NCBI GenBank assembly: GCA_040756875.1
Contig: JBFLYH010000001.1
Span: 1,244,878 to 1,308,877 of the forward strand
Origin: a candidate division FCPU426 bacterium
GTDB taxonomy: Bacteria; Oederibacteriota; JAAXVQ01; JAUVAV01
DNA: 64,000 bases
Direction: 5' to 3'
The position numbers were made by a program, and so were the translations under genes. Numbering within the stretch: the stretch's first letter is position 1; every line of letters starts with the position of its first letter. Positions 873 to 33,109 of the stretch are shown here, one piece after another. The notes under the pieces are model-generated. The model worked only from the letters and a program-made list of their open reading frames with translations. It was not told where the DNA came from and searched no databases.

Positions 873-2693
873 ATGAAACGCATACTACTCGTCGGCTTAA
901 GCCTGAGTCTGCTGGTTCCCTCCGCGGCCCTGGCCTCGGTCCTGTTGCTGCAGGACGGCGTGTGCCTCGATCAAGCCGAGATTATCAGCAATGTGGACTG
1001 GGTCATTACCTTCAGCCGCGAAGGCCAAACCTACCGGATCAACGCCGACCGCATCGTGGAAGTCGCTGACGCCGTGCCTGAAAACTACCGGGTGCTGGCC
1101 CCTGCCGAATTCCCGGACTACGTCACTCCTGCCGGCGAGGCGGCTCCGTTGCCCGAACCCGCGGAATCCGGGTCAGCCGCGTCCGAGCCCCAAACCCCGG
1201 AACTTGCGGCTGACGAGGAAGCTGAAGAAGAACCGCTCTCCCCCACCCCGGAAGCAGGGGACGCCTTCAGAATCCAGGACGTGGGCTGGGTGGATGACAC
1301 GGACTTCCTGTTCAACCTGATGTTCAATGGTTATTACCAGGCCTCTCAGGGGGTAAGCGCGTCTATTCAACCTTACGGGAGCAGTAGCTCTCTTGAAGCC
1401 AGCTTAGTCGAACTGGACGCAGGTTTTGCGGGCCGGGGTTACACCCAGCCGCTCGAATGGGAATTCAACGTGCCCCTGGGCGTTGTCATGGACCCCCGAT
1501 CCATGATTATCTACAAGGATGCAGGACCTTTCATCGCCGGAAACGCAGAGGCTGGCGGAGAGGTGTATTACTACCCGGGCAAACCCTTTATCAGCGTGAT
1601 GGCGGATTATGCCGGGTACTTCCGGGAAGCCTATATCCGCAACCGGATCCAGGCCACGGTCCGCGTTGGCGAAGGCAGGCTGTTCAGGGGCCGGCACGCC
1701 TATCAGGCCCTGCAGATCATCGCGGACCTGGAGTCCGAAGGCAAGCTTCTCAAACCGCTCTCCAGCCAGGACGCGCAGGAGCTCAGCGCCATCATCGCGC
1801 ACGCCCGCAATAAATACCTCTTCGACCAGCGCGCCGAAACCCTGGACGCCGTGGAACAAATCGCGGAATTTCTGAAAAAACGGGGATATATCAGTGATGT
1901 GCGCAGCGTTTTGATCGCAGACGATACGTACCGCTATGTTTCGGACCTTGACCGGGACTTTGGCGCGCGGGGGTACTTCCAGTATCAACGGCTGTACGAC
2001 GACGGCACCCCGCAACTGGGCGAAGGCGGGCAGGAAGAACAAAGCCACCGGGTGGGCGCTGGGTGCGACATGGCTTTTCCCCTCAGCCGGATCTGGCAGT
2101 TGAACGCTTCGCTCGGCCTGGATGCCACGGTGGATTACCTGTCGCGGAAAATAACCCGCGAGACTTACCAATATTATTACTACTCCTACTATTATTATTA
2201 CCCGTACACTTATTCCTACGACAAGTTATCCGAAACCCGCGCCCAAGGGGTCCTTTTCGAGCCTCGCGCCCAGGTTGAGCTCTTCTTCCTCCCGACCACC
2301 CGGGTGCTGTTAAGCCTGTCCAATCAGTTCACCATGACCTATGGAAAATACCATGCCCGGATCGAGCAATGGAAAAATGTCCCTGTCTATTATTATTACA
2401 ACCCCTATTACTCCTATTATTATTATGCCTGGCGGAAATTCAGGGATGACTATGAGTATTATGGCCTGCAATGGCAGGACCAGGTCAGGTTTGCTTTTTC
2501 CTACCAACTCAGCCAGCGGCTGGATTTGGAAATCGCCCTTGATTTCGATTATACCTTCGACCGGGCCGAGGAGGCGTCTGGAATGAGCGTGGACATGAGC
2601 TCAGGCGCCCAAACCCCGTTTACCTCCGCGCCCCAGACGAACTACACCTATTCGGGAAAGGCCACCATCGGGGTCAATTACCGGTTTTTCTGA
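873..2693 (+). CDS. Secreted, probable outer-membrane beta-barrel protein with poly-Tyr loops
   Basis: Signal peptide, RBS AGAGGAG, amphipathic beta-strands, C-terminal IGVNYRFF, two Tyr runs. Confidence 0.7.
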   Translation: MKRILLVGLSLSLLVPSAALASVLLLQDGVCLDQAEIISNVDWVITFSREGQTYRINADRIVEVADAVPENYRVLAPAEFPDYVTPAGEAAPLPEPAESGSAASEPQTPELAADEEAEEEPLSPTPEAGDAFRIQDVGWVDDTDFLFNLMFNGYYQASQGVSASIQPYGSSSSLEASLVELDAGFAGRGYTQPLEWEFNVPLGVVMDPRSMIIYKDAGPFIAGNAEAGGEVYYYPGKPFISVMADYAGYFREAYIRNRIQATVRVGEGRLFRGRHAYQALQIIADLESEGKLLKPLSSQDAQELSAIIAHARNKYLFDQRAETLDAVEQIAEFLKKRGYISDVRSVLIADDTYRYVSDLDRDFGARGYFQYQRLYDDGTPQLGEGGQEEQSHRVGAGCDMAFPLSRIWQLNASLGLDATVDYLSRKITRETYQYYYYSYYYYYPYTYSYDKLSETRAQGVLFEPRAQVELFFLPTTRVLLSLSNQFTMTYGKYHARIEQWKNVPVYYYYNPYYSYYYYAWRKFRDDYEYYGLQWQDQVRFAFSYQLSQRLDLEIALDFDYTFDRAEEASGMSVDMSSGAQTPFTSAPQTNYTYSGKATIGVNYRFF

Positions 2694-2804
2694 TCAGCTG
2701 CTATTCCAGTGCGTCCCGAGAACCGGCGGGCCGGGCCAGTTGCCGCAAACCGCGCGGAAAATATTTTCCGCGGTCTGGCCACCGCCCCCCCCGATAACGA
2801 TTCC

Positions 2805-23969: not shown

Positions 23970-25250
23970 TCATTTCAACGGCTTTCGTTCGTCCCTTTCC
24001 CGCAGTACTCTTTCAACGGCAGCTAACAATAGATCTAGGTCAAAGGGTTTATCTATCACCATACTGAATGGACCGGCTTTCCCACCTTCAACTCCTCCTT
24101 TAACGGTGGCAGCGATCACTTCAACATCATTCCGGGTCCATCTCGTTCGAATAATCCGCATCAATTCATATCCGTTCAATTGCCGCAACATAACATTACA
24201 CAGAAACAATAAATCCGGCAATTGTTTCTCCATTTCCGCCAACGCCTTTTCGGATGTATGGTATTCGAGTATTTTATATCCTTTAGCTTCCAGAATGATT
24301 TTTACCAATTCGGCAATTTCCGCATTCTCCCAAACGAGGCCTATGGTGTACCGCGAAGGATCAAAAACAGCTCCCGAAGTGGATTTTCCAATTACCAGAG
24401 GTGCAAGATGACTCAACTTTCCTTTTCTTGCTTTTTCAATTGCCATTTTATCGATTAGACTTCTCGTCATGCTTTTCAACTCTTCTACATCGAAAGGTTT
24501 GATTAAAATATCATCGGTTAGGGAATACCAGAATGGTATTTCATCTTTTTTTATCCAGCCTTTGTTTAGAAACAACAGTTTTTTCATTGTTTTATTCGGC
24601 CATTGTTTTTTAACTTCCCCCAGGAAATCAATGGCGCTTGTTTTAAATAAAAACATATTCATAACGAATAGGAGATCAGGGAGCCGCGTCTTCATTTTCG
24701 GAAGTGCCCTGTCTGGATCCCCATAATTCAATACCTCAACATTCATCTCCTCCAAAACAAATGTTACTAAGTCAGCTATTGCAGGTTGGCTGTGGACTAA
24801 CCCCACAGAACAAGCCGGCTTAATCTTTTTGGCCGTTTCTTTTGTTACCACCCATTTTTTAATAATATCCATAACTGTGGCAACAGTTTTTCGCACATCC
24901 CCGGAAGACTTAACAACAAGGTATTTAGAATCGTCCGGTCTGGTTGTTCGAGTCTCACTCACCAAAACAACAGGCGCAGGATTGTTTATGCATTCTCGTA
25001 AAATGGAGGCTAAAAAGTAACCCGCGCTCTCTCCCTGGCCAGTCTCTTTCTGCATATGAGCCGGACAGCGGCTAACATCCATCCGCTTATCCATGATCAG
25101 GCCATCAAGATCTTGGTATACAACAATGGCATTGAATGCTGCTTCCGCATCCATGGTCCGGATAATTTGGGTTCGATGTCTGCCGGACTTAAGTAAGGCG
25201 GCTATTTTTTGGACCGATGGGCTGTTCCCAGCCAAAAGGATCTTTATCAT
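23970..25250 (-). CDS. Protein with three receiver(-like) domains
   Basis: GLIMD; PDLLFVMN...ILIKPFDVEEL; PDLLFLCN...NGYELM...IDKPFDLDLL. Confidence 0.75.
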   Translation of the reverse strand: MIKILLAGNSPSVQKIAALLKSGRHRTQIIRTMDAEAAFNAIVVYQDLDGLIMDKRMDVSRCPAHMQKETGQGESAGYFLASILRECINNPAPVVLVSETRTTRPDDSKYLVVKSSGDVRKTVATVMDIIKKWVVTKETAKKIKPACSVGLVHSQPAIADLVTFVLEEMNVEVLNYGDPDRALPKMKTRLPDLLFVMNMFLFKTSAIDFLGEVKKQWPNKTMKKLLFLNKGWIKKDEIPFWYSLTDDILIKPFDVEELKSMTRSLIDKMAIEKARKGKLSHLAPLVIGKSTSGAVFDPSRYTIGLVWENAEIAELVKIILEAKGYKILEYHTSEKALAEMEKQLPDLLFLCNVMLRQLNGYELMRIIRTRWTRNDVEVIAATVKGGVEGGKAGPFSMVIDKPFDLDLLLAAVERVLRERDERKPLK

Positions 25251-25422
25251 TGTAATTCACCCCCAGACAACAGGTCTGAAAGGTCAGGATAATGTATATC
25301 AAGTTCTTTTAAATTAGACGTCGTCCATGATATTTTCATTACCATTTTCCCGCTCTTTTTCTATAATCACCAAGGGAAATATTGATACTTCATTTTCCAT
25401 TTCATCCTCACAAGGAGCCCTT

Positions 25423-25974
25423 ATGCCGCAGTATAAAAGCGTCCCGCTTGATTCCGCCTACCGGCTGATCAATCACGGGCCGGTCCTTTTAATTTCCAGC
25501 CGCTCCCGCCGGGGCAGGTTCGATCTGGCGCCCATTGCCTGGGCCTGTCCGGTGGGCATGGAGCCCTGCCAGGTCCTGCTCGCCATGAGTCCCGGGCATC
25601 AGACCTTCCGGAACATCCAGGCTGAACGCGGGTTCATTGTCTGCGTGCCCGGAAAAGCGCAGGTCAAATGGGTCAGGGAGGCCGGCTCCATTTCCGGCAC
25701 TCAAGCGGACAAGTTCGCCAAATTCAAGATCCCGTCTTTTCCAGGCAAAAAAGTCCGCGCTCAAATCCCGCAGGGCACTGTGGCTTATCTGGAATGCAAC
25801 TGGCAGCGCACGATCCGGCTGAAGGAAGTCGCCCTGGTTATCGGCCGCTGCGTGCATGCCGCTGCCCTGGCTCAGGCGTATCAAGGGCGCCTGCGGGCCG
25901 AAAAGCCGGAGGGCAAAACCCTCCACCACCTGGGCGGTAACGTGTTCATGGTGCCAGGCGACAAGCTGGCGTAA
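25423..25974 (+). CDS. Flavin reductase family protein
   Basis: AYRLINHGPVLLISS, GSISG..ADKF, LEC, TLHHLGG; RBS AAGGAG. Confidence 0.9.
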   Translation: MPQYKSVPLDSAYRLINHGPVLLISSRSRRGRFDLAPIAWACPVGMEPCQVLLAMSPGHQTFRNIQAERGFIVCVPGKAQVKWVREAGSISGTQADKFAKFKIPSFPGKKVRAQIPQGTVAYLECNWQRTIRLKEVALVIGRCVHAAALAQAYQGRLRAEKPEGKTLHHLGGNVFMVPGDKLA

Positions 25975-27869: not shown

Positions 27870-28361
27870 TCAAGCGATCTTGTTTTCCAGGTGGGTAACG
27901 CGTTTTTCCAGCTTGGCCAGGTCTTTGCCATCGGCTTTGTGGCTCAAAGCGCGCATGATTTCTTTATGGCCATCTTGCAGGCGGGTTACTTTCCGGGTGA
28001 GCACACCTTGGCCCGCCTCTAAACGAGTGACCTTTACATGAAGCTCATCTTGTCCTTCCTGCAATTTAGAAACCCGCCCTTCCAGGTTTGAAACCTGCCC
28101 CTCCACCTTTGTAACCTTCTCCTCCAGGTTCGAAACCCCCTTCTCCAAGTTCGAAACCCCCTTCTCCAAGTTCGAAACCCGCCCGTTGAGCACGGTTTGG
28201 CCTTCATGCAGAACGCCGACTTCATGCTTCAGGTCGTGGATGTCAGCCTCGACCCTGTCAAACCGGTGATTCACGACCTCAACCACGCGCTTGATATCTG
28301 ACCTAACGTCTTCTATTGCGGTCTTAAATTCACCCAATGAAATCATCCCCTCTTCGGTCAT
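27870..28361 (-). CDS. Heptad-repeat coiled-coil protein
   Basis: (VSNLEKG)-type heptads; RBS AAGGAGG before ATG 28361. Confidence 0.75.
   Translation of the reverse strand: MTEEGMISLGEFKTAIEDVRSDIKRVVEVVNHRFDRVEADIHDLKHEVGVLHEGQTVLNGRVSNLEKGVSNLEKGVSNLEEKVTKVEGQVSNLEGRVSKLQEGQDELHVKVTRLEAGQGVLTRKVTRLQDGHKEIMRALSHKADGKDLAKLEKRVTHLENKIA
28060..28190. repeat. 21-bp tandem repeats encoding heptads
   Basis: TTCGAAACCCCCTTCTCCAAG twice, plus degenerate units. Confidence 0.85.
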
Positions 28362-28471
28362 TATTGCCTCCTTATTGTGGGCAAACCAGGTTGCTCTGTC
28401 AACGAACAATTCTCGAAACATTAGACCCACGGAGGCAGTTTTCCATGCGTTCTAAAATAATGTTCCCTATA

Positions 28472-28708
28472 TCATGGCTTGCACACCTTGCACGGCCTGT
28501 AACCATTTTCCCGGGCTTGGGCTTTAGTTTTAAAGACGATTAGGTTCTTCTTTTTAATCTTTTTGGCCCAGCGGCAAGTGGAATAGTGGTATTTGTCCGA
28601 GCGGATGCTGCCGTAATAGGCGGCTAAGGAAGGGAGAGGAGTGAATAGCGTGAACAGCAGGAGTCCAACTGATAAAACAGCCAGTGCCTTTTTCCGCATC
28701 CCCATCAC
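28472..28708 (-). CDS. Secreted Ada-type metal-binding domain protein (copy 1)
   Basis: Signal peptide then YYGSIRSDKYHYSTC...GYRPCKVCKP. Confidence 0.8.
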   Translation of the reverse strand: MMGMRKKALAVLSVGLLLFTLFTPLPSLAAYYGSIRSDKYHYSTCRWAKKIKKKNLIVFKTKAQARENGYRPCKVCKP

Positions 28709-28779
28709 CTACTTCCGGGTATGGTCGAGTGGGAGAGGGAAAGGAGAAAGTCATTTTGACATCCAAACAACGTCCCCAC

Positions 28780-28833
28780 TCAATCAAGTGCGGTCTTAAA
28801 TTCGCTCAATGAAATCATCCCCTCTTCGGTCAT
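28780..28833 (-). pseudogene. Truncated 17-aa copy of the coiled-coil gene start
   Basis: MTEEGMISLSEFKTALD* versus intact MTEEGMISLGEFKTAIED; RBS retained. Confidence 0.7.
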
Positions 28834-28943
28834 CAAAGCCTCCTCATTGTGGGCGAACCGGGTTGCTCTGTCAACGAACAATTCTCGAAACATTAGACCC
28901 ACGGAGGCAGTTTTCCATGCGTTCTAAAATAATGTTCCCTATA

Positions 28944-29180
28944 TCATGGCTTGCACACCTTGCACGGCCTGTAACCATTTTCCCGGGCTTGGGCTTTAGT
29001 TTTAAAGACGATTAGGTTCTTCTTTTTAATCTTTTTGGCCCAGCGGCAAGTGGAATAGTGGTATTTGTCCGAGCGGATGCTGCCGTAATAGGCGGCTAAG
29101 GAAGGGAGAGGAGTGAATAGCGTGAACAGCAGGAGTCCAACTGATAAAACAGCCAGTGCCTTTTTCCGCATCCCCATCAC
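28944..29180 (-). CDS. Secreted Ada-type metal-binding domain protein (copy 2, identical)
   Basis: Protein identical to 28472-28708. Confidence 0.8.
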   Translation of the reverse strand: MMGMRKKALAVLSVGLLLFTLFTPLPSLAAYYGSIRSDKYHYSTCRWAKKIKKKNLIVFKTKAQARENGYRPCKVCKP

Positions 29181-29282
29181 CTACTTCCGGGTATGGTCGA
29201 GTGGGAGAGGGAAAGGAGAAAGTCATTTTGACATCCAAACAACGTCCCCAATCACAATGTCCCAGTTCATATTTATATAAGC

Positions 29283-29804
29283 CTAAGCGGCTTTGAGTTT
29301 CTTAGCCAGTCCTTGAGCCCAGTCCTTGATCGCCTTCCAATCCCGCGCGTCGCTGGCAGGCGTTTTATACAATGGGCTGACCGGCAGTTTGCCCAGCAGT
29401 GAATCCGGGAAACGCAGCGTAGCTGGATCGTACTTGCCGCCGAACATGACGGTTGATAGCGGCTTTAACCCAGGGAAAGCTTCCAGCGCCTTCTGCATCT
29501 GGGCTAATACACCCGGTTTGGCCAAGTCCTCACTTTTAACCGGCCCTAACGTGAAAATCGCCAAGGGTTTGGAGGCAAGGGCCGCGCCCTGCCGCTCCAG
29601 AAACCGCCCGGCGTCTTTTTGAAGCTTGCCGATGTACAATGGTGCGCCAAGAACCACCGCACTGAATCCATCGAGCTTCTTCACCTTCGCGGCAGACTCA
29701 ACCGAAACCTGCAAACCGTTTTCACGCAGCACGCTGGCCACGGATTCAGCGACCTCCCGGGTTGAACCATAACGAGTGGCATAGGTTACGAGTACATTCG
29801 CCAT
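29283..29804 (-). CDS. Flavodoxin-domain (HemG-like) protein
   Basis: VLVTYATRYGSTREVAE, AVVLGAPLYIG, DARDWKAIKDWA. Confidence 0.88.
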   Translation of the reverse strand: MANVLVTYATRYGSTREVAESVASVLRENGLQVSVESAAKVKKLDGFSAVVLGAPLYIGKLQKDAGRFLERQGAALASKPLAIFTLGPVKSEDLAKPGVLAQMQKALEAFPGLKPLSTVMFGGKYDPATLRFPDSLLGKLPVSPLYKTPASDARDWKAIKDWAQGLAKKLKAA

Positions 29805-29879
29805 AGCGGACACCTTCCTTTGTTTTGGATTATTGGAGATATTGTAGTGGCCTGCACCAATCCTCGGAATTCAGACATC

Positions 29880-30476
29880 TTATAAAAGAAGCGTCACGAC
29901 TATTATTGGAGCGATGAATATTGCAATAATATAAAGCCAACTTGAAGACAGGTAAAAGTGGATATTGTAATAAGTAGCTTCAATCCAATTAATATTTAAA
30001 TAATTCCTATACTGAGATTTAAACTTTTGCAAATCTACTTCTTCGTGGTTTTCAGGACATGCATTTAGTTCTTGTTGGTACCTCTTTTCAATATCCACTA
30101 ATTTTTCACTTAACTGTTCAGTATCAATATCACTATATAAATTTACTTCACTTAGTATTGTGTTTATTCTTTTAGCACAATTTTCCAATCTTTCCGCTCT
30201 AACAATGTATTTTTGAGAATTTTCGATTAGGCTAAAAACAAGGATGAATATTGAAAAAACAATAGTGAAAAAATCAGTTATATCTCTATTTAAAGTTGTT
30301 ATGAATCTCGGAAGTATAGATAGTGAAATACAATAGACAGACAAAAGCGCAATTCCAGCTACTGACCAATTACTCTTACTAATTAGCCTTCGGGATGCAT
30401 TAAACCTCGATCCCATAGTTTTCCAATATTTATCCCTATATTCACTTTTTTTCGCCGCTCTCGAATCACCAGTCAT
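29880..30476 (-). CDS. SLATT-domain membrane effector (SLATT_5-like)
   Basis: WKTMGSRFNASRRL, two TMs, RAERLENCA, Y...L..CPENHEEVD, C-terminal TM; AT-rich; RBS GAGGTG. Confidence 0.82.
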   Translation of the reverse strand: MTGDSRAAKKSEYRDKYWKTMGSRFNASRRLISKSNWSVAGIALLSVYCISLSILPRFITTLNRDITDFFTIVFSIFILVFSLIENSQKYIVRAERLENCAKRINTILSEVNLYSDIDTEQLSEKLVDIEKRYQQELNACPENHEEVDLQKFKSQYRNYLNINWIEATYYNIHFYLSSSWLYIIAIFIAPIIVVTLLL

Positions 30477-30494
30477 TTCGCACCTCTTTTAGAG

Positions 30495-30625
30495 AGGGTG
30501 GGCTACCTAATTTGACATTGCCATCTCTCTTGACAATTTCCAAGAGGTCAAGACCCTGCTCGGGTATTGATTACATCCCCCTCATTATTTTAATGAGGTC
30601 CTCAAATGAGGAGGTAGCCCACCCT
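30495..30625 (-). ncRNA. Putative RT-associated structured non-coding RNA (~131 nt)
   Basis: Perfect 14-bp inverted repeat AGGGTGGGCTACCT / AGGTAGCCCACCCT enclosing four hairpins, filling the RT-SLATT gap. Confidence 0.7.
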
Positions 30626-32027
30626 AGTAGATATTAGCATCATCTTTACTCAACTTCGAGAGTCTTCGCATTTTAACTAAATTAAATACATTTTCTACTT
30701 CTTGGTTCGAATACTTTCTATTATAGTTTAAATAACCAAACCTTTTCAGGTACAATAGCTTTTGACTTACAGTTAATATATTATTGTAATTCATAATATA
30801 TCCATTATTAGGTGAATATTTCGCTTCATAGAAAGATCTCGCCAGACTCTTTAATGTTTGAGGTGGCGTCCCCTCAAACTCATCCAATCTCCGAAAAAAG
30901 CTCCTTATCAGCTTGTCAATCCTGTATAAAAGTCCAACATCATTCATGCTCAGAAAATAGAATATCCACCCATATCTTTTTTTATCCGAAATGGCACCAG
31001 TTATTTTTTCATTAAGCTCTGTAATAAATACTTCATTAGGTGATTCAATAACGAATGAATAATCTTTAATTTTGTTTTTAAATCTGCTAAACATGGAGAC
31101 TATCGAATGCAAATAATTTTCAACAGTTTTTGGTCTCACTGTTATAACAGGCATTCTAAATAAGTACCCTAAATATTCAAATTGGTTTTCACTTTTGCAT
31201 ATCCGTGTCTTGCCAACCCCAGCTATATCAATTTCCAGTTTTAATTTCCGAAGCCCCTCCTCGACTTTGTTAATCAATTCATCCAGATATTCATTTTTTG
31301 TTATTACTAAAATATCATCTACATATCTAAAATAACAACATCTCGTATCATTTTGCATTTCGCGATCAAACTGTAGTAAATATATATTTGCTAGTATATT
31401 AGATATTGCTAAACCCTGTGGCACTCCTTTTGTAATTAATTTGTTTCTTTCCCTCTTATGATAACTCCTATTGACAATTGGCGTTTTCAAACCACCTTCA
31501 ATTAAGCTGAGTAGTTTTTTTGATCGAATTCTATCCTTCAATTTAGTAATTAGAATATCATTGTCTATATTAGGATAATATTCTTTAATGTCCGTCTGAT
31601 AAATCATTGTATTCCGAAGGTCAGTCGCATTCAAATAGCGAGCAATTCTATCAATATAAGTATTAGCTAACGACATTTGATTTGCTTCAGGGAATACTTC
31701 CGCCAATATCTCTTTTAGTTGATTAAGAACTATTCGATCTCGAAGAGTAGGTATAGCAACAACACGTGGTTTTTTATCCCTTCCTTTTAATTTTAAAAGT
31801 TCAAGATATGGGGCAAATTGATATTTTCCATCAACACACTTTCTTTTAATAACTGCGAATTCGTCTTGCAATCGTTTTTTGAATATTTCACCATTAATAT
31901 AATCAATACCTCTGTTCTTATCATGCCAATATTTGTGCTCAAATGCCGCTTTAAGCGTTTTTAATGAATACTTTTTTCTCAACAAGTCATTTAATCTCAT
32001 CGCGCCGAGGAATAAACAATATTTCAT
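30624..32027 (-). CDS. Reverse transcriptase, UG/DRT class-2-like (SLATT-associated)
   Basis: KPRVVAIPTLRDRIV, TDIKEYYPNID, GVPQGLAISNILANIYL, YFRYVDDIL, FEYLGY, KITG...YGWIFYF; no retron VTG motif, no intron maturase/HNH tail. Confidence 0.92.
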   Translation of the reverse strand: MKYCLFLGAMRLNDLLRKKYSLKTLKAAFEHKYWHDKNRGIDYINGEIFKKRLQDEFAVIKRKCVDGKYQFAPYLELLKLKGRDKKPRVVAIPTLRDRIVLNQLKEILAEVFPEANQMSLANTYIDRIARYLNATDLRNTMIYQTDIKEYYPNIDNDILITKLKDRIRSKKLLSLIEGGLKTPIVNRSYHKRERNKLITKGVPQGLAISNILANIYLLQFDREMQNDTRCCYFRYVDDILVITKNEYLDELINKVEEGLRKLKLEIDIAGVGKTRICKSENQFEYLGYLFRMPVITVRPKTVENYLHSIVSMFSRFKNKIKDYSFVIESPNEVFITELNEKITGAISDKKRYGWIFYFLSMNDVGLLYRIDKLIRSFFRRLDEFEGTPPQTLKSLARSFYEAKYSPNNGYIMNYNNILTVSQKLLYLKRFGYLNYNRKYSNQEVENVFNLVKMRRLSKLSKDDANIY

Positions 32028-32183
32028 ATTAAATACTATTTATTCTTTCGCCCCTCCTTTTTTTAATACTAAATTGAATTAGTTATCATGACAATGCATC
32101 TTTCTTATTTAGTCACAGCCATTGGAAATATAAATAGCTTGGTCAGGTTCTCCCTCACCCTCCTCTTTTCTACCCACATCAGT

Positions 32184-32705
32184 TTATCTAGCAGAGTTTG
32201 CCTTCATTTCCCTCAACCGTTCCTCAGCCAATTTAGCCAGGCGTATTCTGCTCTCCTTAGTAAATATGCTTTCCTTGGGCTTGGTCCAGGCTGCGATAAC
32301 ATGCTTTGCCCAGCGGATTGGAGAGGCAAACAAGCTTGGCCGCTGATCCTCGCCCTGGGCGGCCAGTTTTTCGAGCGCGGGTATGGCCTGCTTGGCTTCC
32401 GCGCCGAAGCGATCCAGCCATGCCAGCATTTCGGCTTTGAAATCTTTTATTTCCAGCGGGTTTTCAAACAGCACGATGATCGCCGCCAGGACTTCGTGCT
32501 GGTCCGGCTGAATCCGTTTGCCGATTCCAGCCAGGACATCAGCATAAAAGCCGTGTTCCAGGCCAATAGGGTCCCATAATTCGCGTTCCTCTGCTTGGGA
32601 GTGGGTCTGCTTGACAATTAGGTCCCAGGCTGTTTGGCGCGCGATTTTAGGATCAGAGGAGTAGAGTTTGGGGTATTGAGTTTTTATCGCTTCGAGATCA
32701 GGCAT
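32184..32705 (-). CDS. Hypothetical alpha-helical protein
   Basis: 173-aa ORF with RBS GAGG; possible HEAT-like segment AKQAIPALEKLA. Confidence 0.6.
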   Translation of the reverse strand: MPDLEAIKTQYPKLYSSDPKIARQTAWDLIVKQTHSQAEERELWDPIGLEHGFYADVLAGIGKRIQPDQHEVLAAIIVLFENPLEIKDFKAEMLAWLDRFGAEAKQAIPALEKLAAQGEDQRPSLFASPIRWAKHVIAAWTKPKESIFTKESRIRLAKLAEERLREMKANSAR

Positions 32706-32737
32706 CAGCGCGCCTCAGGGAGCAGTGTGGCGTTCCT

Positions 32738-33109
32738 TTAGCATTTCTTTCCTTTATTATTCTCCCCCACCCTGAACTTCACGATCCTCTTCACCAGCGC
32801 CCAGGGCACGGGCTGGTCCAGGGGAAACTGGACGGTTCCGGCCGAGGTTTTATAAGCACTGAGTTCTTTTTTGAAGGCTTTGATGCCGCTGGAAGTCGGG
32901 TACAAGCCGACGTGCTTTTTGAAAGCCGCGTAATAGACCAGCGGCCCGTTGAGAAAGAACGCCGGCACGCCGTAACCCATCGCCTCCTTGGCTTTGGGCG
33001 CAACACCGCGGATGGTCCGGCGCATGGTTTTCAGGACCGCCTGGACTTCCTTGGGCTGGCGGCTGATATACTCGTCCACCGCGTTGATAGTCTTCTTGGC
33101 TTTTTCCAT
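32738..33109 (-). CDS. YdhG/DUF1801 family protein
   Basis: VDEYI, MGYGVPAF, YAAFKKHVGLYP, GTVQFPLDQPVP. Confidence 0.92.
   Translation of the reverse strand: MEKAKKTINAVDEYISRQPKEVQAVLKTMRRTIRGVAPKAKEAMGYGVPAFFLNGPLVYYAAFKKHVGLYPTSSGIKAFKKELSAYKTSAGTVQFPLDQPVPWALVKRIVKFRVGENNKGKKC

What the first reader, a model, noticed from the sequence alone, without database searches (positions are those of the whole stretch)
29880..32027. Candidate defence system: reverse transcriptase, structured ncRNA and SLATT effector (DRT10-like, order RT-ncRNA-SLATT)
Seen: a 467-aa RT with an intact YVDD motif, a 147-nt gap that folds into one closed multi-hairpin domain, and a 198-aa SLATT membrane protein. All are co-oriented on an AT-rich island. 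Established: SLATT_5-type proteins accompany UG-family RTs, and class-2 defence RTs (DRT2, DRT9, DRT10) use a cis-encoded structured RNA as template for de novo DNA; DRT10 is described as RT plus ncRNA plus SLATT making tandem-repeat cDNA. Inference: this is a tripartite anti-phage module. The RNA lies downstream of the RT and overlaps its stop codon, whereas retrons and DRT2 carry it upstream, so this may be a variant or undescribed subtype in a poorly studied lineage.
Basis: partly seen in the sequence, partly recalled or inferred. Interest (0 to 1): 0.92.

Follow-up and report, generated by a model that had tools for sequence, protein, structure and literature searches.

The report
DRT10 anti-phage reverse transcriptase module
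This is an intact copy of an already described bacterial anti-phage system (DRT10: a reverse transcriptase, its small structured template RNA and a membrane protein) in an uncultivated groundwater bacterium, so it is a new member of a known kind and not a new system.

Summary
A 467-aa RT with YVDD (30624-32027, minus strand), a 147-nt gap and a 198-aa SLATT_5 protein (29880-30476) lie co-oriented on a 2.3-kb AT-rich insert.

- **RT:** full-length match to PADLOC RT_UG17 (4e-130).
- **RNA:** the gap folds with z = -6.75. It belongs to a conserved RNA family: 92.6% of cells pair against 36-48% when partners are slid, and 19 of 22 pairs change on both sides.
- **Other published DRT10 traits present:** a terminal Tyr preceded by a long helix, and an A-B-A' repeat (AUG-GCA-AUG) 2 nt after the boundary stem-loop.

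The claim of a new subtype is not supported. RT-gap-SLATT is a described UG17 arrangement (bioRxiv 10.64898/2026.04.29.721553). It occurs in 59 of 80 related loci, and the RNA touches the RT stop codon in 19 of 56. In a quick tree the RT falls on the RT-then-SLATT side of a 99%-supported split.

Verdict: new member of a known kind, recently acquired (0 of 40 relatives carry it).

Side finding: three related loci have the order SLATT-RT-RNA.

Earlier scan notes shown concern other RT modules.

The parts
29870..32170 (.). AT-rich insert that carries the whole module (approximate borders)
   Evidence: GC is 0.23-0.40 inside and at least 0.47 outside at 100-nt resolution, and 0.31-0.36 against about 0.57 at 500 nt. 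No tRNA in the window, and no flanking direct repeats or integrase. RT, SLATT and several neighbours are missing at the syntenic spot of the same-genus genome.
30624..32027 (-). UG17 (DRT10) reverse transcriptase, 467 aa from the first ATG. The true start is uncertain: the database form is 453 aa, and residues 1-8 are low-confidence.
   Evidence: PADLOC RT_UG17 4e-130, 432.5 bits, residues 13-466 on profile 4-428/429; next best 141 bits. Pfam RVT_1 3.2e-22. Database form P0001. AF2 pLDDT 87.9, residues 1-8 below 50.
31314..31325 (-). Catalytic YVDD codons (Y235 V236 D237 D238)
   Evidence: Translation and sequence. Y235, D237 and D238 are invariant and V236 nearly invariant in 21 homologues.
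30627..30629 (-). Codon of the terminal Tyr467, the predicted protein-priming residue
   Evidence: The ORF ends ...DDANIY*. An AF2 helix at 441-466 ends at it. Published priming residues are the C-terminal S456 and Y444. 57 of 60 RTs have Tyr or Ser within the last 3 residues.
30631..30639 (-). Extended -10-like box TGCTAATAT inside the RT's last codons; predicted promoter of the ncRNA, with the transcription start near 30622-30624
   Evidence: Coordinates. A TAnnnT hexamer ends 4-8 nt before the RNA domain in 40 of 56 loci, against 8 of 56 and 4 of 56 in control windows. Inferred, not shown.
30495..30625 (-). DRT10 ncRNA, closed domain of 131 nt. P1 30612-30625 pairs with 30495-30508. SLa 30600-30611, SLb 30580-30598, loop A 30571-30579, SLc 30548-30570, SLd 30527-30546, loop B 30509-30526.
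   Evidence: Fold z = -6.75. The only hit of model R1 in the 64-kb window is at 30498-30623, 86 bits. Covariation of P1, SLb, SLc and SLd. SLa is seen only in single-sequence folds. Coordinates.
30516..30524 (-). Predicted template: A-B = AUGGCA (30519-30524) followed by A' = AUG (30516-30518), 2 nt after the SLd helix. Predicted cDNA repeat 5'-TGCCAT-3'. Alternative: CAAUGU/CAA (30515-30520 plus the next 3 nt), giving 5'-ACATTG-3'.
   Evidence: read against the published rules. This is an inference; short A-B-A' patterns are common by chance.
30481..30486 (-). Shine-Dalgarno-like GAGGUG 4 nt before the SLATT ATG (bases 30477-30480 lie between), in the 3' arm of a small hairpin that follows P1
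   Evidence: Sequence, fold, coordinates.
29880..30476 (-). SLATT_5 membrane effector, 198 aa. Hydrophobic segments at about 37-60, 65-88 and 174-198.
   Evidence: Pfam SLATT_5 2.1e-42. PADLOC RTasSLATT 5.8e-40. NCBIfam SLATT_5 139.4 bits against a cut-off of 60. Hydropathy scan.

Best explanation
This is an intact DRT10 (UG17) anti-phage module of the described RT-ncRNA-SLATT arrangement (UG17-B type), acquired horizontally as a bare 2.3-kb AT-rich insert.

1. The 131-nt RNA is transcribed from its own -10 box, which lies inside the RT's last codons.
2. It folds into a closed, roughly two-fold symmetric multi-hairpin scaffold.
3. The scaffold binds RT, two copies per RNA in the published structures.
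4. The RT primes DNA synthesis on its own C-terminal Tyr467.
5. It copies a short template in loop B just after stem-loop SLd.
6. It then realigns the product on the downstream repeat (AUG-GCA-AUG), producing long tandem repeats, predicted to be (TGCCAT)n.
7. The level of this cDNA changes on phage infection and controls the SLATT membrane protein, which stops the infected cell.

Shown here:
- family membership of both proteins;
- conservation and covariation of the RNA;
- the terminal Tyr and the helix before it;
- an A-B-A' repeat at the published distance from the boundary stem-loop;
- a positionally conserved -10-like box.

Inferred from the literature only: cDNA synthesis, protein priming, 2:1 stoichiometry, SLATT activation and defence.
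For: **Proteins**
- RT: PADLOC RT_UG17 4e-130, 432.5 bits, full length, against 141 bits or less for any other RT model. YVDD is intact.
- Partner: SLATT_5 at 2.1e-42 and the RT-associated SLATT model at 5.8e-40.
- C-terminus ...DDANIY*, with a predicted helix at 441-466 (pLDDT 87.9). This matches the published helix immediately before a C-terminal Ser or Tyr primer.

**RNA**
- Fold z = -6.75.
- RNAalifold on a plain MAFFT alignment of 13 sequences gives 22 pairs, 18 of them with compensatory changes.
- On 22 CM-aligned sequences, 92.6% of cells pair against 36-48% when partners are slid. 19 of 22 pairs change on both sides. The covariation score is 0.671, against 0.262 in shuffles (0 of 500 reach it) and at most 0.151 when slid.
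- Model R1 hits once in the 64-kb window. It hits 33 of 80 related loci at E <= 1, always directly 3' of the RT.

**Template rule**
- The best A-B-A' starts 2-5 nt after the SLd helix in 17 of 22 loops, against 6.8 +/- 2.2 in shuffles (0 of 2000). De-replicated, it is 12 of 16 against 4.8 +/- 1.8 (1 of 2000).
- In the window it starts 2 nt after the helix, like the 2-nt linker of Eco_3.

**Promoter**
- A TAnnnT box ends 4-8 nt upstream of the RNA in 40 of 56 loci, against 8 and 4 of 56 in control windows.

**Subtype**
- 59 of 80 relatives have RT then SLATT.
- The RT is 44% identical to the Methylotenera mobilis RT, the species named as the UG17-B representative.
- A split with 99% SH-aLRT support separates four tight SLATT-RT plasmid systems (plus L074) from the 35 other rows, which include the window.
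- R1 finds nothing with E below 0.6 in those four loci, as the paper says of subtype-specific RNA models.

**Horizontal transfer**
- Low-GC insert.
- UG17 RT found in 0 of 40 relatives searched.
- Absent at the syntenic spot of the same-genus genome.
Against: - Nothing here is experimental. No RNA run holds the locus, so there is no evidence of expression, cDNA or defence.
- Sequence identity to the nearest RT is only 46-48%. The window sits on a long branch (0.97) in an unresolved polytomy. Both trees are quick IQ-TREE runs with SH-aLRT support only.
- I had no reference set of UG17-A, -B and -C sequences. My proxies were four plasmid loci chosen by gene order.
- The covariation alignment was fitted to the model structure, and 13 of its 22 rows were seeds.
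- An A-B-A' repeat with A of 3 nt is not informative on its own: 22 of 22 loops have one, against 20.0 of 22 in shuffles. A of 4 nt or more occurs in 13 of 22 against 8.5 +/- 2.3 (39 of 1000). An MFE-defined version of the test was not significant (24 of 50 against 21.8). I chose the offset window after seeing the data.
- A second repeat in the same loop (CAA-UGU-CAA) predicts a different product.
- The first ATG of the RT has no Shine-Dalgarno at a usable distance: GGAGG lies 25 nt upstream.
- The generic promoter scan was not enriched (12 sites against 10.8 +/- 3.5) and did not list the TAATAT box.
- No other defence genes lie next to it.
Confidence: 0.9

Rival explanations
1. It is a distinct, not yet described subtype of DRT10, not a UG17-B member. 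It would be a deep branch with its own RNA features: the RNA flush with the RT stop codon, the promoter inside the RT's C-terminal codons, and a conserved loop A.
For: At most 48% identity to any of 5.8 billion clustered proteins. Long terminal branch, and no starred clade holds the window. The host is a candidate phylum, outside the Pseudomonadota and Bacteroidota named for UG17-B. The nearest relatives are cyanobacterial.
Against: The same RNA model covers cyanobacterial, proteobacterial, Gemmatimonadota-labelled and other loci. The compact layout is shared by 18 other loci. Gene order and RNA architecture match the published description. The window falls on the RT-then-SLATT side of a 99%-supported split.
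Confidence: 0.07
2. The gap is only a structured 5' leader or regulatory element of the SLATT mRNA (stability or translation control). It is not an RT-bound template RNA.
For: No terminator lies between the RNA and SLATT. The SLATT Shine-Dalgarno sits in a small hairpin right after the basal stem. No expression data are available.
Against: In L009, L013 and L032 the same RNA stays directly 3' of the RT while SLATT lies upstream, so it does not need to be a SLATT leader. Published RIP-seq shows that RNAs at this position bind the RT and template cDNA. The multi-hairpin closed domain covaries over distant phyla.
Confidence: 0.02
3. It is a group II intron, retron, DRT2, DRT3 or DRT9 reverse transcriptase and not DRT10.
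For: Weak cross-hits. NCBIfam group II intron RT/maturase scores 140 bits, Drt3a 93, Drt2 89 and retron St85 51. The nearest solved folds are group II intron RTs and DRT9 (TM about 0.6).
Against: All of these are far below their curated cut-offs (300, 200, 390 and 235 bits) and far below the UG17 score of 432 bits. Rfam finds no intron, retron or other RNA family in 29000-33000, even at E <= 1. The longest U run in the RNA is 3, so there is no DRT9-type poly-U template. There is a single RT with a SLATT partner.
Confidence: 0.01

Closest known systems
DRT10 / UG17, RT-SLATT arrangement (UG17-B; representative Methylotenera mobilis JLW8). Source: Sanchez-Nieto et al., bioRxiv 10.64898/2026.04.29.721553 (abstract and sections 28-29 read).
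   Same: Gene order RT, structured ncRNA, SLATT_5. A gap of the order of 200 bp with its own promoter. 44% identity to the M. mobilis RT. The RNA model does not transfer to SLATT-RT loci.
   Different: The gap is shorter (147 nt), with the RNA flush against the stop codon; 18 other loci share this. The host is an uncultivated candidate-phylum bacterium, and the nearest relatives are cyanobacterial, whereas the paper names Pseudomonadota and Bacteroidota. I could not run the authors' model or tree, because the supplements are closed.
Eco_1 and Eco_3 DRT10. Sources: bioRxiv 10.1101/2025.10.16.682844 (section 7 and passages read); Ramirez et al., bioRxiv 10.64898/2026.06.29.735271 (sections 5-7, section 8 part 1, and passages from elsewhere read).
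   Same: A closed RNA with a basal stem, several hairpins and two single-stranded loops. An A-B-A' repeat in the 3' loop, 2 nt after the boundary stem-loop. A C-terminal hydroxyl residue after a long helix (Tyr, as in Eco_1).
   Different: The predicted repeat is 6 nt (TGCCAT), against 8 nt (AATCGTGT, Eco_1) and 9 nt (GAATCATTG, Eco_3). A is only 3 nt long. Loop A is strongly conserved in this clade (core GUAAUC). The gene order of the Eco systems is shown only in figures I could not see. No sequence comparison was possible, because no DRT10 chain is in the PDB copy.
DRT9 (UG28)
   Same: A class 2 UG RT with a protein-primed, ncRNA-templated repetitive product. It is among the closest solved folds (TM about 0.6).
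   Different: DRT9 copies a poly-U tract into poly-dA. The window RNA has no U run longer than 3. RT_UG28 is not among the 25 best of the 66 PADLOC matches shown.
Telomerase (TERT with its RNA)
   Same: Works alike according to the cited preprints: a short internal RNA template, a boundary element, and realignment for repeat addition. The predicted repeat here is also 6 nt.
   Different: Not a member. It is protein-primed, has no TEN/TRBD domains and is 467 aa. Nothing about telomerase was tested here.

Membership tests
DRT10 / UG17 | RT belongs to the UG17 group | tested here: met
   PADLOC RT_UG17 4e-130, 432.5 bits, profile 4-428/429; next best model 141 bits.
DRT10 / UG17 | Intact catalytic YVDD | tested here: met
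   RYVDDIL in the translation. Y235, D237 and D238 are invariant in 21 homologues.
DRT10 / UG17 | Adjacent SLATT_5 partner gene | tested here: met
   Pfam SLATT_5 2.1e-42; PADLOC RTasSLATT 5.8e-40; NCBIfam 139.4 bits against a cut-off of 60. Same strand, 147 nt downstream.
DRT10 / UG17 | Conserved structured ncRNA immediately upstream of SLATT | tested here: met
   z = -6.75. 18 of 22 pairs compensatory on a MAFFT alignment. 92.6% of cells paired against 36-48% when slid. No Rfam family exists for it.
DRT10 / UG17 | Pseudo-symmetric RNA: basal stem, flanking stem-loops, and two single-stranded loops (A and B) | tested here: inconclusive
   The predicted secondary structure fits: P1, SLa, SLb, a 9-nt loop A, SLc, SLd and an 18-nt loop B. 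SLb and SLd both open with CCUC and are followed by GAUG...CAA. This is a prediction only; the three-dimensional symmetry cannot be tested.
DRT10 / UG17 | A-B-A' template in loop B at a fixed short distance from the boundary stem-loop | tested here: met
   AUG-GCA-AUG starts 2 nt after SLd. Family-wide positional enrichment is 17 of 22 against 6.8 +/- 2.2. Caveat: mere presence of a 3-nt repeat is not above chance.
DRT10 / UG17 | C-terminal Ser or Tyr priming residue preceded by a conserved helix | tested here: met
   Terminal Y467. AF2 helix 441-466, pLDDT 87.9. 57 of 60 relatives have Tyr or Ser within the last 3 residues.
DRT10 / UG17 | Protein-primed tandem-repeat cDNA synthesis, 2:1 RT:RNA complex, and SLATT-dependent phage defence | not testable with these tools
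   These need cloning, miniprep-seq or cDIP-seq, plaque assays and structural work. No RNA run was listed.
UG17-B subtype | RT upstream of SLATT, separated by an intergenic region that holds the ncRNA | tested here: met
   description.
UG17-B subtype | RT clusters with the UG17-B clade in the RT phylogeny | tested here: inconclusive
   The window is on the RT-then-SLATT side of a 99% SH-aLRT split from four tight SLATT-RT plasmid loci, and is 44% identical to the M. mobilis RT. The authors' labelled set was not available, and both trees were quick runs.
Group II intron RT / retron RT / DRT2 / DRT3a | Score at or above the NCBIfam curated cut-off, and the cognate RNA present | tested here: not met
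   140 against 300, 51 against 235, 88.8 against 390 and 93.2 against 200 bits. No Rfam match in 29000-33000.
DRT9 / UG28 | Poly-U template tract in the ncRNA | tested here: not met
   The longest U run is 3.

The most novel reading that the evidence does not exclude
In the RT-then-SLATT branch of DRT10, the RNA is genetically tied to the 3' end of the RT gene and not to SLATT.
- Its -10 box sits a fixed 4-8 nt upstream of the RNA. In compact loci such as this one, the box is written into the codons of the priming C-terminus (...N-I-Y*).
- The RNA stays 3' of the RT even where SLATT has moved upstream (SLATT-RT-RNA in L009, L013 and L032).
- Loop A carries a near-invariant GUAAUC core, which hints at a sequence-specific role for the second RT protomer.

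On this reading the window is a deep-branching, Tyr-primed member that makes a 6-nt (TGCCAT)n product. It would represent an organisational variant that the published three-subtype scheme does not spell out.
Probability: 0.2. Interest if true: 0.45.

Novelty: new member of a known kind. Interest (0 to 1): 0.28.

Why it matters
DRT10 is of current interest because its repeat-addition mechanism parallels telomerase. A divergent, compact, Tyr-primed member from an uncultivated groundwater lineage adds sequence diversity for comparative work. It also gives a concrete, testable prediction: a (TGCCAT)n product templated at 30519-30524.

The family-wide results here extend published observations to cyanobacterial and other hosts:
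- the fixed distance of the A-B-A' repeat from the boundary stem-loop;
- a positionally conserved -10 box;
- a SLATT-RT-RNA permutation.

None of this changes the picture of how the system works, and the module itself is ordinary for its kind.

Tried and rejected
- **A-B-A' with MFE-defined loops.** Not significant: 24 of 50 against 21.8 +/- 2.0, with 64 of 300 shuffles as high. MFE often pairs part of the loop, so I replaced it with CM-defined loops.
- **Iterating the covariance model on the 22-sequence alignment.** I dropped the step, so the reach of a single RNA model over the whole group rests on model R1 alone (33 of 80 loci at E <= 1).
- **Expression.** No RNA holder listed. The one DNA holder may be the source sample.
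- **Solved structures.** No DRT10 chain in the PDB copy by sequence (14 hits, best Cas6-RT-Cas1 at 1.2e-13) or by fold. Published contact residues (R371, K385, Y388 of Eco_3) therefore could not be mapped.
- **Rfam.** Nothing at E <= 1.
- **Generic promoter and terminator scan.** Not enriched.
- **Island borders from an empty site.** The same-genus genome is rearranged here and gives no clean junction.
- **Neighbouring defence genes.** None; only coiled-coil noise.
- **A 14-nt complementarity** between the loop A region (30563-30576) and the RT 5' coding region (31897-31910). I judged it chance, since similar pairs occur elsewhere in this AT-rich stretch.
- **Earlier scan notes.** None near this place. 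The 8 shown of 15 found by words concern other RT modules that only name DRT10 as closest known.
- **Supplements.** The supplementary tables of the DRT10 preprints (homologue and ncRNA lists, tree files) were closed. They may already list this locus type or the SLATT-RT-RNA order.
- **Chen et al. (10.64898/2026.10.08.757509).** Abstract and outline only.
- **Mestre et al. 2022 (PMC9226505).** Passages only.
Full report
**Observation.** The window holds three co-oriented elements on the minus strand:
- a 467-aa ORF (30624-32027) whose translation contains RYVDDIL;
- a 147-nt gap (30477-30623);
- a 198-aa ORF (29880-30476).

GC falls to 0.31-0.36 across 30000-31999, against roughly 0.48-0.65 on either side. 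At 100-nt resolution the low-GC insert runs from about 29870 to 32170, and the RNA forms a local GC bump of 0.43-0.47. The gap plus the stop codon folds at -63.9 kcal/mol. The 200 dinucleotide shuffles average -39.99 +/- 3.54, so z = -6.75, and none folds as well. The fold is a single closed domain. A perfect 14-bp basal stem (30612-30625 with 30495-30508, also found by the repeat finder) encloses four to five hairpins. The 5' arm begins at the A of the TAG stop codon.

**Protein families.**
- The RT matches PADLOC RT_UG17 at 4e-130 (432.5 bits) over residues 13-466 and profile positions 4-428 of 429. The next models score 141 bits (generic RT), 114 (Drt3a), 109 (UG4) and 94 (Drt2).
- NCBIfam models stay far below their cut-offs: group II intron RT/maturase 140 against 300, Drt3a 93 against 200, Drt2 89 against 390, retron St85 51 against 235.
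- The partner matches Pfam SLATT_5 (2.1e-42, residues 10-195), the PADLOC RT-associated SLATT model (5.8e-40) and NCBIfam SLATT_5 (139 bits against 60).
- It has hydrophobic segments at about 37-60 and 65-88, the SLATT two-helix hairpin, and a third at 174-198.

**What is in print.** A full-text search for 'DRT10' returned 122 papers, four of them on this system. A search for 'UG17' with 'SLATT' returned ten.
- *bioRxiv 10.1101/2025.10.16.682844* (passages and section 7 read). It names UG17 systems DRT10. [quoted passage not shown]
- *Sanchez-Nieto et al., bioRxiv 10.64898/2026.04.29.721553* (abstract and sections 28-29 read). It describes two gene orders: a predominant, tightly coupled SLATT-RT, and 'the alternative RT-SLATT arrangement', with about 200 bp between the genes and promoters before both. 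It defines three subtypes, each with its own ncRNA upstream of SLATT. [quoted passage not shown]
- *Ramirez et al., bioRxiv 10.64898/2026.06.29.735271* (abstract; sections 5-7 and section 8 part 1; passages from elsewhere). It shows two RT copies on one pseudo-symmetric RNA with loops A and B. Only loop B gives long repeats. There is a fixed 2-nt linker between the boundary stem-loop and the template, and a conserved helix just before the priming residue.
- *Chen et al., 10.64898/2026.10.08.757509*. I saw only the abstract and outline.
- *Mestre et al. 2022, PMC9226505*. I saw only passages.

So the order RT-ncRNA-SLATT is not new.

**Relatives.** A search of 5.8 billion clustered proteins gave 1212 hits at E <= 1e-20 among the 8000 candidates scored. 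The best non-self hits are 46-48% identical, and the M. mobilis RT is 44%. A scan of one genome per species found 483 confirmed relatives, and the best 80 were kept as loci. Among these 80 loci:
- 59 have a SLATT hit downstream of the RT on the same strand;
- 3 have it upstream (L009, L013, L032);
- 18 have no hit to the window's SLATT, several of them cut by contig ends.

The RT-SLATT gaps are mostly 123-240 nt. Of the 60 RT-then-SLATT cases (59 loci plus the window), 57 fold into a closed domain with a basal helix of at least 6 bp and at least 3 hairpins.

**The RNA is a conserved family.**
- A plain MAFFT alignment of the window RNA with 12 relatives gave an RNAalifold consensus of 22 pairs, 18 of them with compensatory changes.
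- A covariance model built from it (R1) hits the 64-kb window once, at 30498-30623 (86 bits). At E <= 1 it hits 33 of the 80 loci, always directly 3' of the RT. There were also four weak reverse-strand echoes.
- On the 22 hits with E <= 0.001, nine of which were not seeds, 92.6% of cells form a standard pair, against 36-48% when the 3' partners are slid by 1-3 columns.
- In the same set, 19 of 22 pairs change on both sides. The covariation score is 0.671, against 0.262 +/- 0.020 in shuffles (0 of 500 reach it) and at most 0.151 when slid.
- Caveat: that alignment was fitted to the model.
- The tested helices are P1, SLb, SLc and SLd. SLa appears only in single-sequence folds.
- Rfam has no match, even at E <= 1.

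**Fit to the published mechanism.** The predicted layout is P1, SLa, SLb, loop A (GGGAUGUAA), SLc, SLd, loop B (AGAUGGCAAUGUCAAAUU), P1'.
- SLb and SLd both open with CCUC, and each is followed by a GAUG...CAA stretch. This is consistent with the published pseudo-symmetry, but it is only a prediction.
- In loop B, AUG-GCA-AUG starts 2 nt after the SLd helix, like the 2-nt linker of Eco_3. That predicts a 6-nt cDNA repeat, TGCCAT.
- A second repeat, CAA-UGU-CAA, would give ACATTG, but it lies 6 nt from the helix.
- Mere presence of such repeats is weak evidence. A of at least 3 nt occurs in 22 of 22 CM-defined loops, against 20.0 +/- 1.4 in shuffles. A of at least 4 nt occurs in 13 of 22, against 8.5 +/- 2.3 (39 of 1000). 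A of at least 5 nt occurs in 2 of 22, against 2.1. An MFE-defined version was not significant.
- Position is informative. The best repeat starts 2-5 nt after the helix in 17 of 22 loops, against 6.8 +/- 2.2 in shuffles (0 of 2000). After crude de-replication it is 12 of 16, against 4.8 +/- 1.8 (1 of 2000). I chose that position window after seeing the data, and the sequences are related.
- The RT ends ...DDANIY*. An AlphaFold2 model (pLDDT 87.9, pTM 0.83) has a helix at 441-466 running to the terminal Tyr.
- 57 of 60 RTs have Tyr or Ser within the last three residues. The last residue is Tyr in 24, Gly in 17 and Ser in 8.
- The RNA has no U run longer than 3, so it is not a DRT9-type template.
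- The closest solved folds are group II intron RTs, DRT9 and DRT2. No DRT10 entry is in the PDB copies searched.

**Promoter and compaction.** A TAnnnT hexamer ends 4-8 nt upstream of the RNA domain in 40 of 56 distinct loci. Counted in a 5-10 nt window it is 34 of 56, against 8 and 4 of 56 in two control windows further upstream. In the window the box is TGCTAATAT (30631-30639), inside the codons for A-N-I. This predicts a transcription start at about 30622-30624. The RNA abuts or overlaps the RT stop codon in 19 of 56 loci including the window, so this compaction is common. The generic promoter scan was not enriched and did not list this box. The promoter is an inference.

**Subtype.** In a quick tree of 78 RTs, the window sits on a long branch in an unresolved group with cyanobacterial and proteobacterial RT-then-SLATT systems. 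Its best identity there is 47%. Four plasmid systems with tightly coupled SLATT-RT served as proxies for the other subtypes: Pseudomonas and Pseudoalteromonas, the latter beside a tyrosine recombinase, and Bacillus and Staphylococcus. They are 27-33% identical to the window RT. In a 40-row quick tree, a branch with 99% SH-aLRT support separates these four plus L074 from the other 35 rows, which include the window. R1 finds nothing with E below 0.6 in those four loci with filters off. That agrees with the paper's remark that the RNA models work only within subtypes. I did not have the authors' labelled sequences, so assignment to UG17-B is well supported but not formally shown.

**Context.**
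- The genome has 3.22 Mb in 7 contigs and a single UG17 RT.
- None of 40 relatives searched has one at E <= 1e-60: 1 same genus, 9 same family, 4 same order, 26 same phylum.
- The same-genus genome keeps the outer neighbours (IVP-like, coiled-coil, DUF1801, ICMT). It lacks the RT, SLATT, flavodoxin, the 173-aa ORF and the 592-aa ORF there.
- There is no tRNA in the window, and no integrase or flanking direct repeat near the insert. No other defence gene lies nearby.
- The nearest named homologues of a radical SAM neighbour are 'bacterium' and 'candidate division FCPU426' at 64%.

Together this points to recent horizontal acquisition of a bare two-gene module by an uncultivated lineage.

**Verdict.** This is an intact DRT10 module of the described RT-ncRNA-SLATT type. 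It is a new member of a known kind. The step-by-step mechanism is inferred by homology. The testable specifics are the RNA ends, Tyr467 priming and the (TGCCAT)n product.

Noticed in passing
L009 2375-4509; L013 2359-4493; L032 149-2262: These three related loci have the order SLATT_5 (Pfam 8.6e-33 for L009 and 1e-30 for L013; L032 by tblastn only), then RT, then the RNA (R1 39.7-46.8 bits, directly 3' of the RT). With filters off there is no RNA hit upstream of SLATT, and L013 has only 84 nt before its SLATT gene. They form one clade (99% support) next to an RT-then-SLATT locus (L012). The text I read places the DRT10 RNA upstream of SLATT in all subtypes. I could not see the figures or supplements.
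   Followed up: partly
window 30631-30639, and the equivalent place in 40 of 56 related loci: A -10-like TAnnnT box lies at a fixed 4-8 nt before the RNA domain. In compact loci it is embedded in the codons of the RT's priming C-terminus (for example ...NIY*, ...NIS*, ...TIY*). The same bases would then encode both the primer tail and the RNA's promoter.
   Followed up: partly
window 30566-30579, and alignment A4 columns 67-81: Loop A is strongly conserved in this clade (AUGUAAUCAA in the window and cyanobacterial loci, with a core GUAAUC nearly invariant across 22 sequences). Loop B is variable. In Eco_3, loop A gives only a short abortive product, so this conservation may mean sequence-specific RT contacts or another role.
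   Followed up: no
G000:C3:162121-163032 (locus L082, ORF 1405-2724, minus strand): The same genome encodes a second defence RT, a full-length Drt3a (NCBIfam 375.5 bits against a cut-off of 200). No second RT ORF of 150 aa or more, and no Rfam match, lies in the 3.9-kb locus fetched. The partner Drt3b and the RNA were not looked for further.
   Followed up: partly
window 28312-29083: A tandem duplication: two copies of 300 nt or more, 97% identical, 472 nt apart. It duplicates a 78-aa ORF with an Ada-type metal-binding domain and a signal-peptide-like N-terminus (28472-28708 and 28944-29180).
   Followed up: no
window 28066-28191: Six tandem 21-nt units inside a 186-aa coiled-coil ORF (27870-28430) encode repeated heptad triplets (VSNLEKG-like).
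   Followed up: no
window 23970-25500: A second low-GC patch (0.40-0.45). It holds a 426-aa ORF with a C-terminal response-regulator receiver domain and an N-terminal part with no Pfam match at E <= 1e-5. It may be another acquired gene.
   Followed up: no
window 30563-30576 and 31897-31910: The loop A region of the RNA is complementary over 14 nt (13 Watson-Crick pairs plus one G-U) to the RT mRNA at the codons of the conserved G-I-D motif. This is probably chance in AT-rich sequence. It was not checked in relatives.
   Followed up: no
L088 6300-9550 (same-genus genome G001): At the spot syntenic to the window's variable region, the same-genus genome carries three different ORFs (332, 240 and 276 aa) that I did not characterise. 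The region behaves as a variable hotspot.
   Followed up: no
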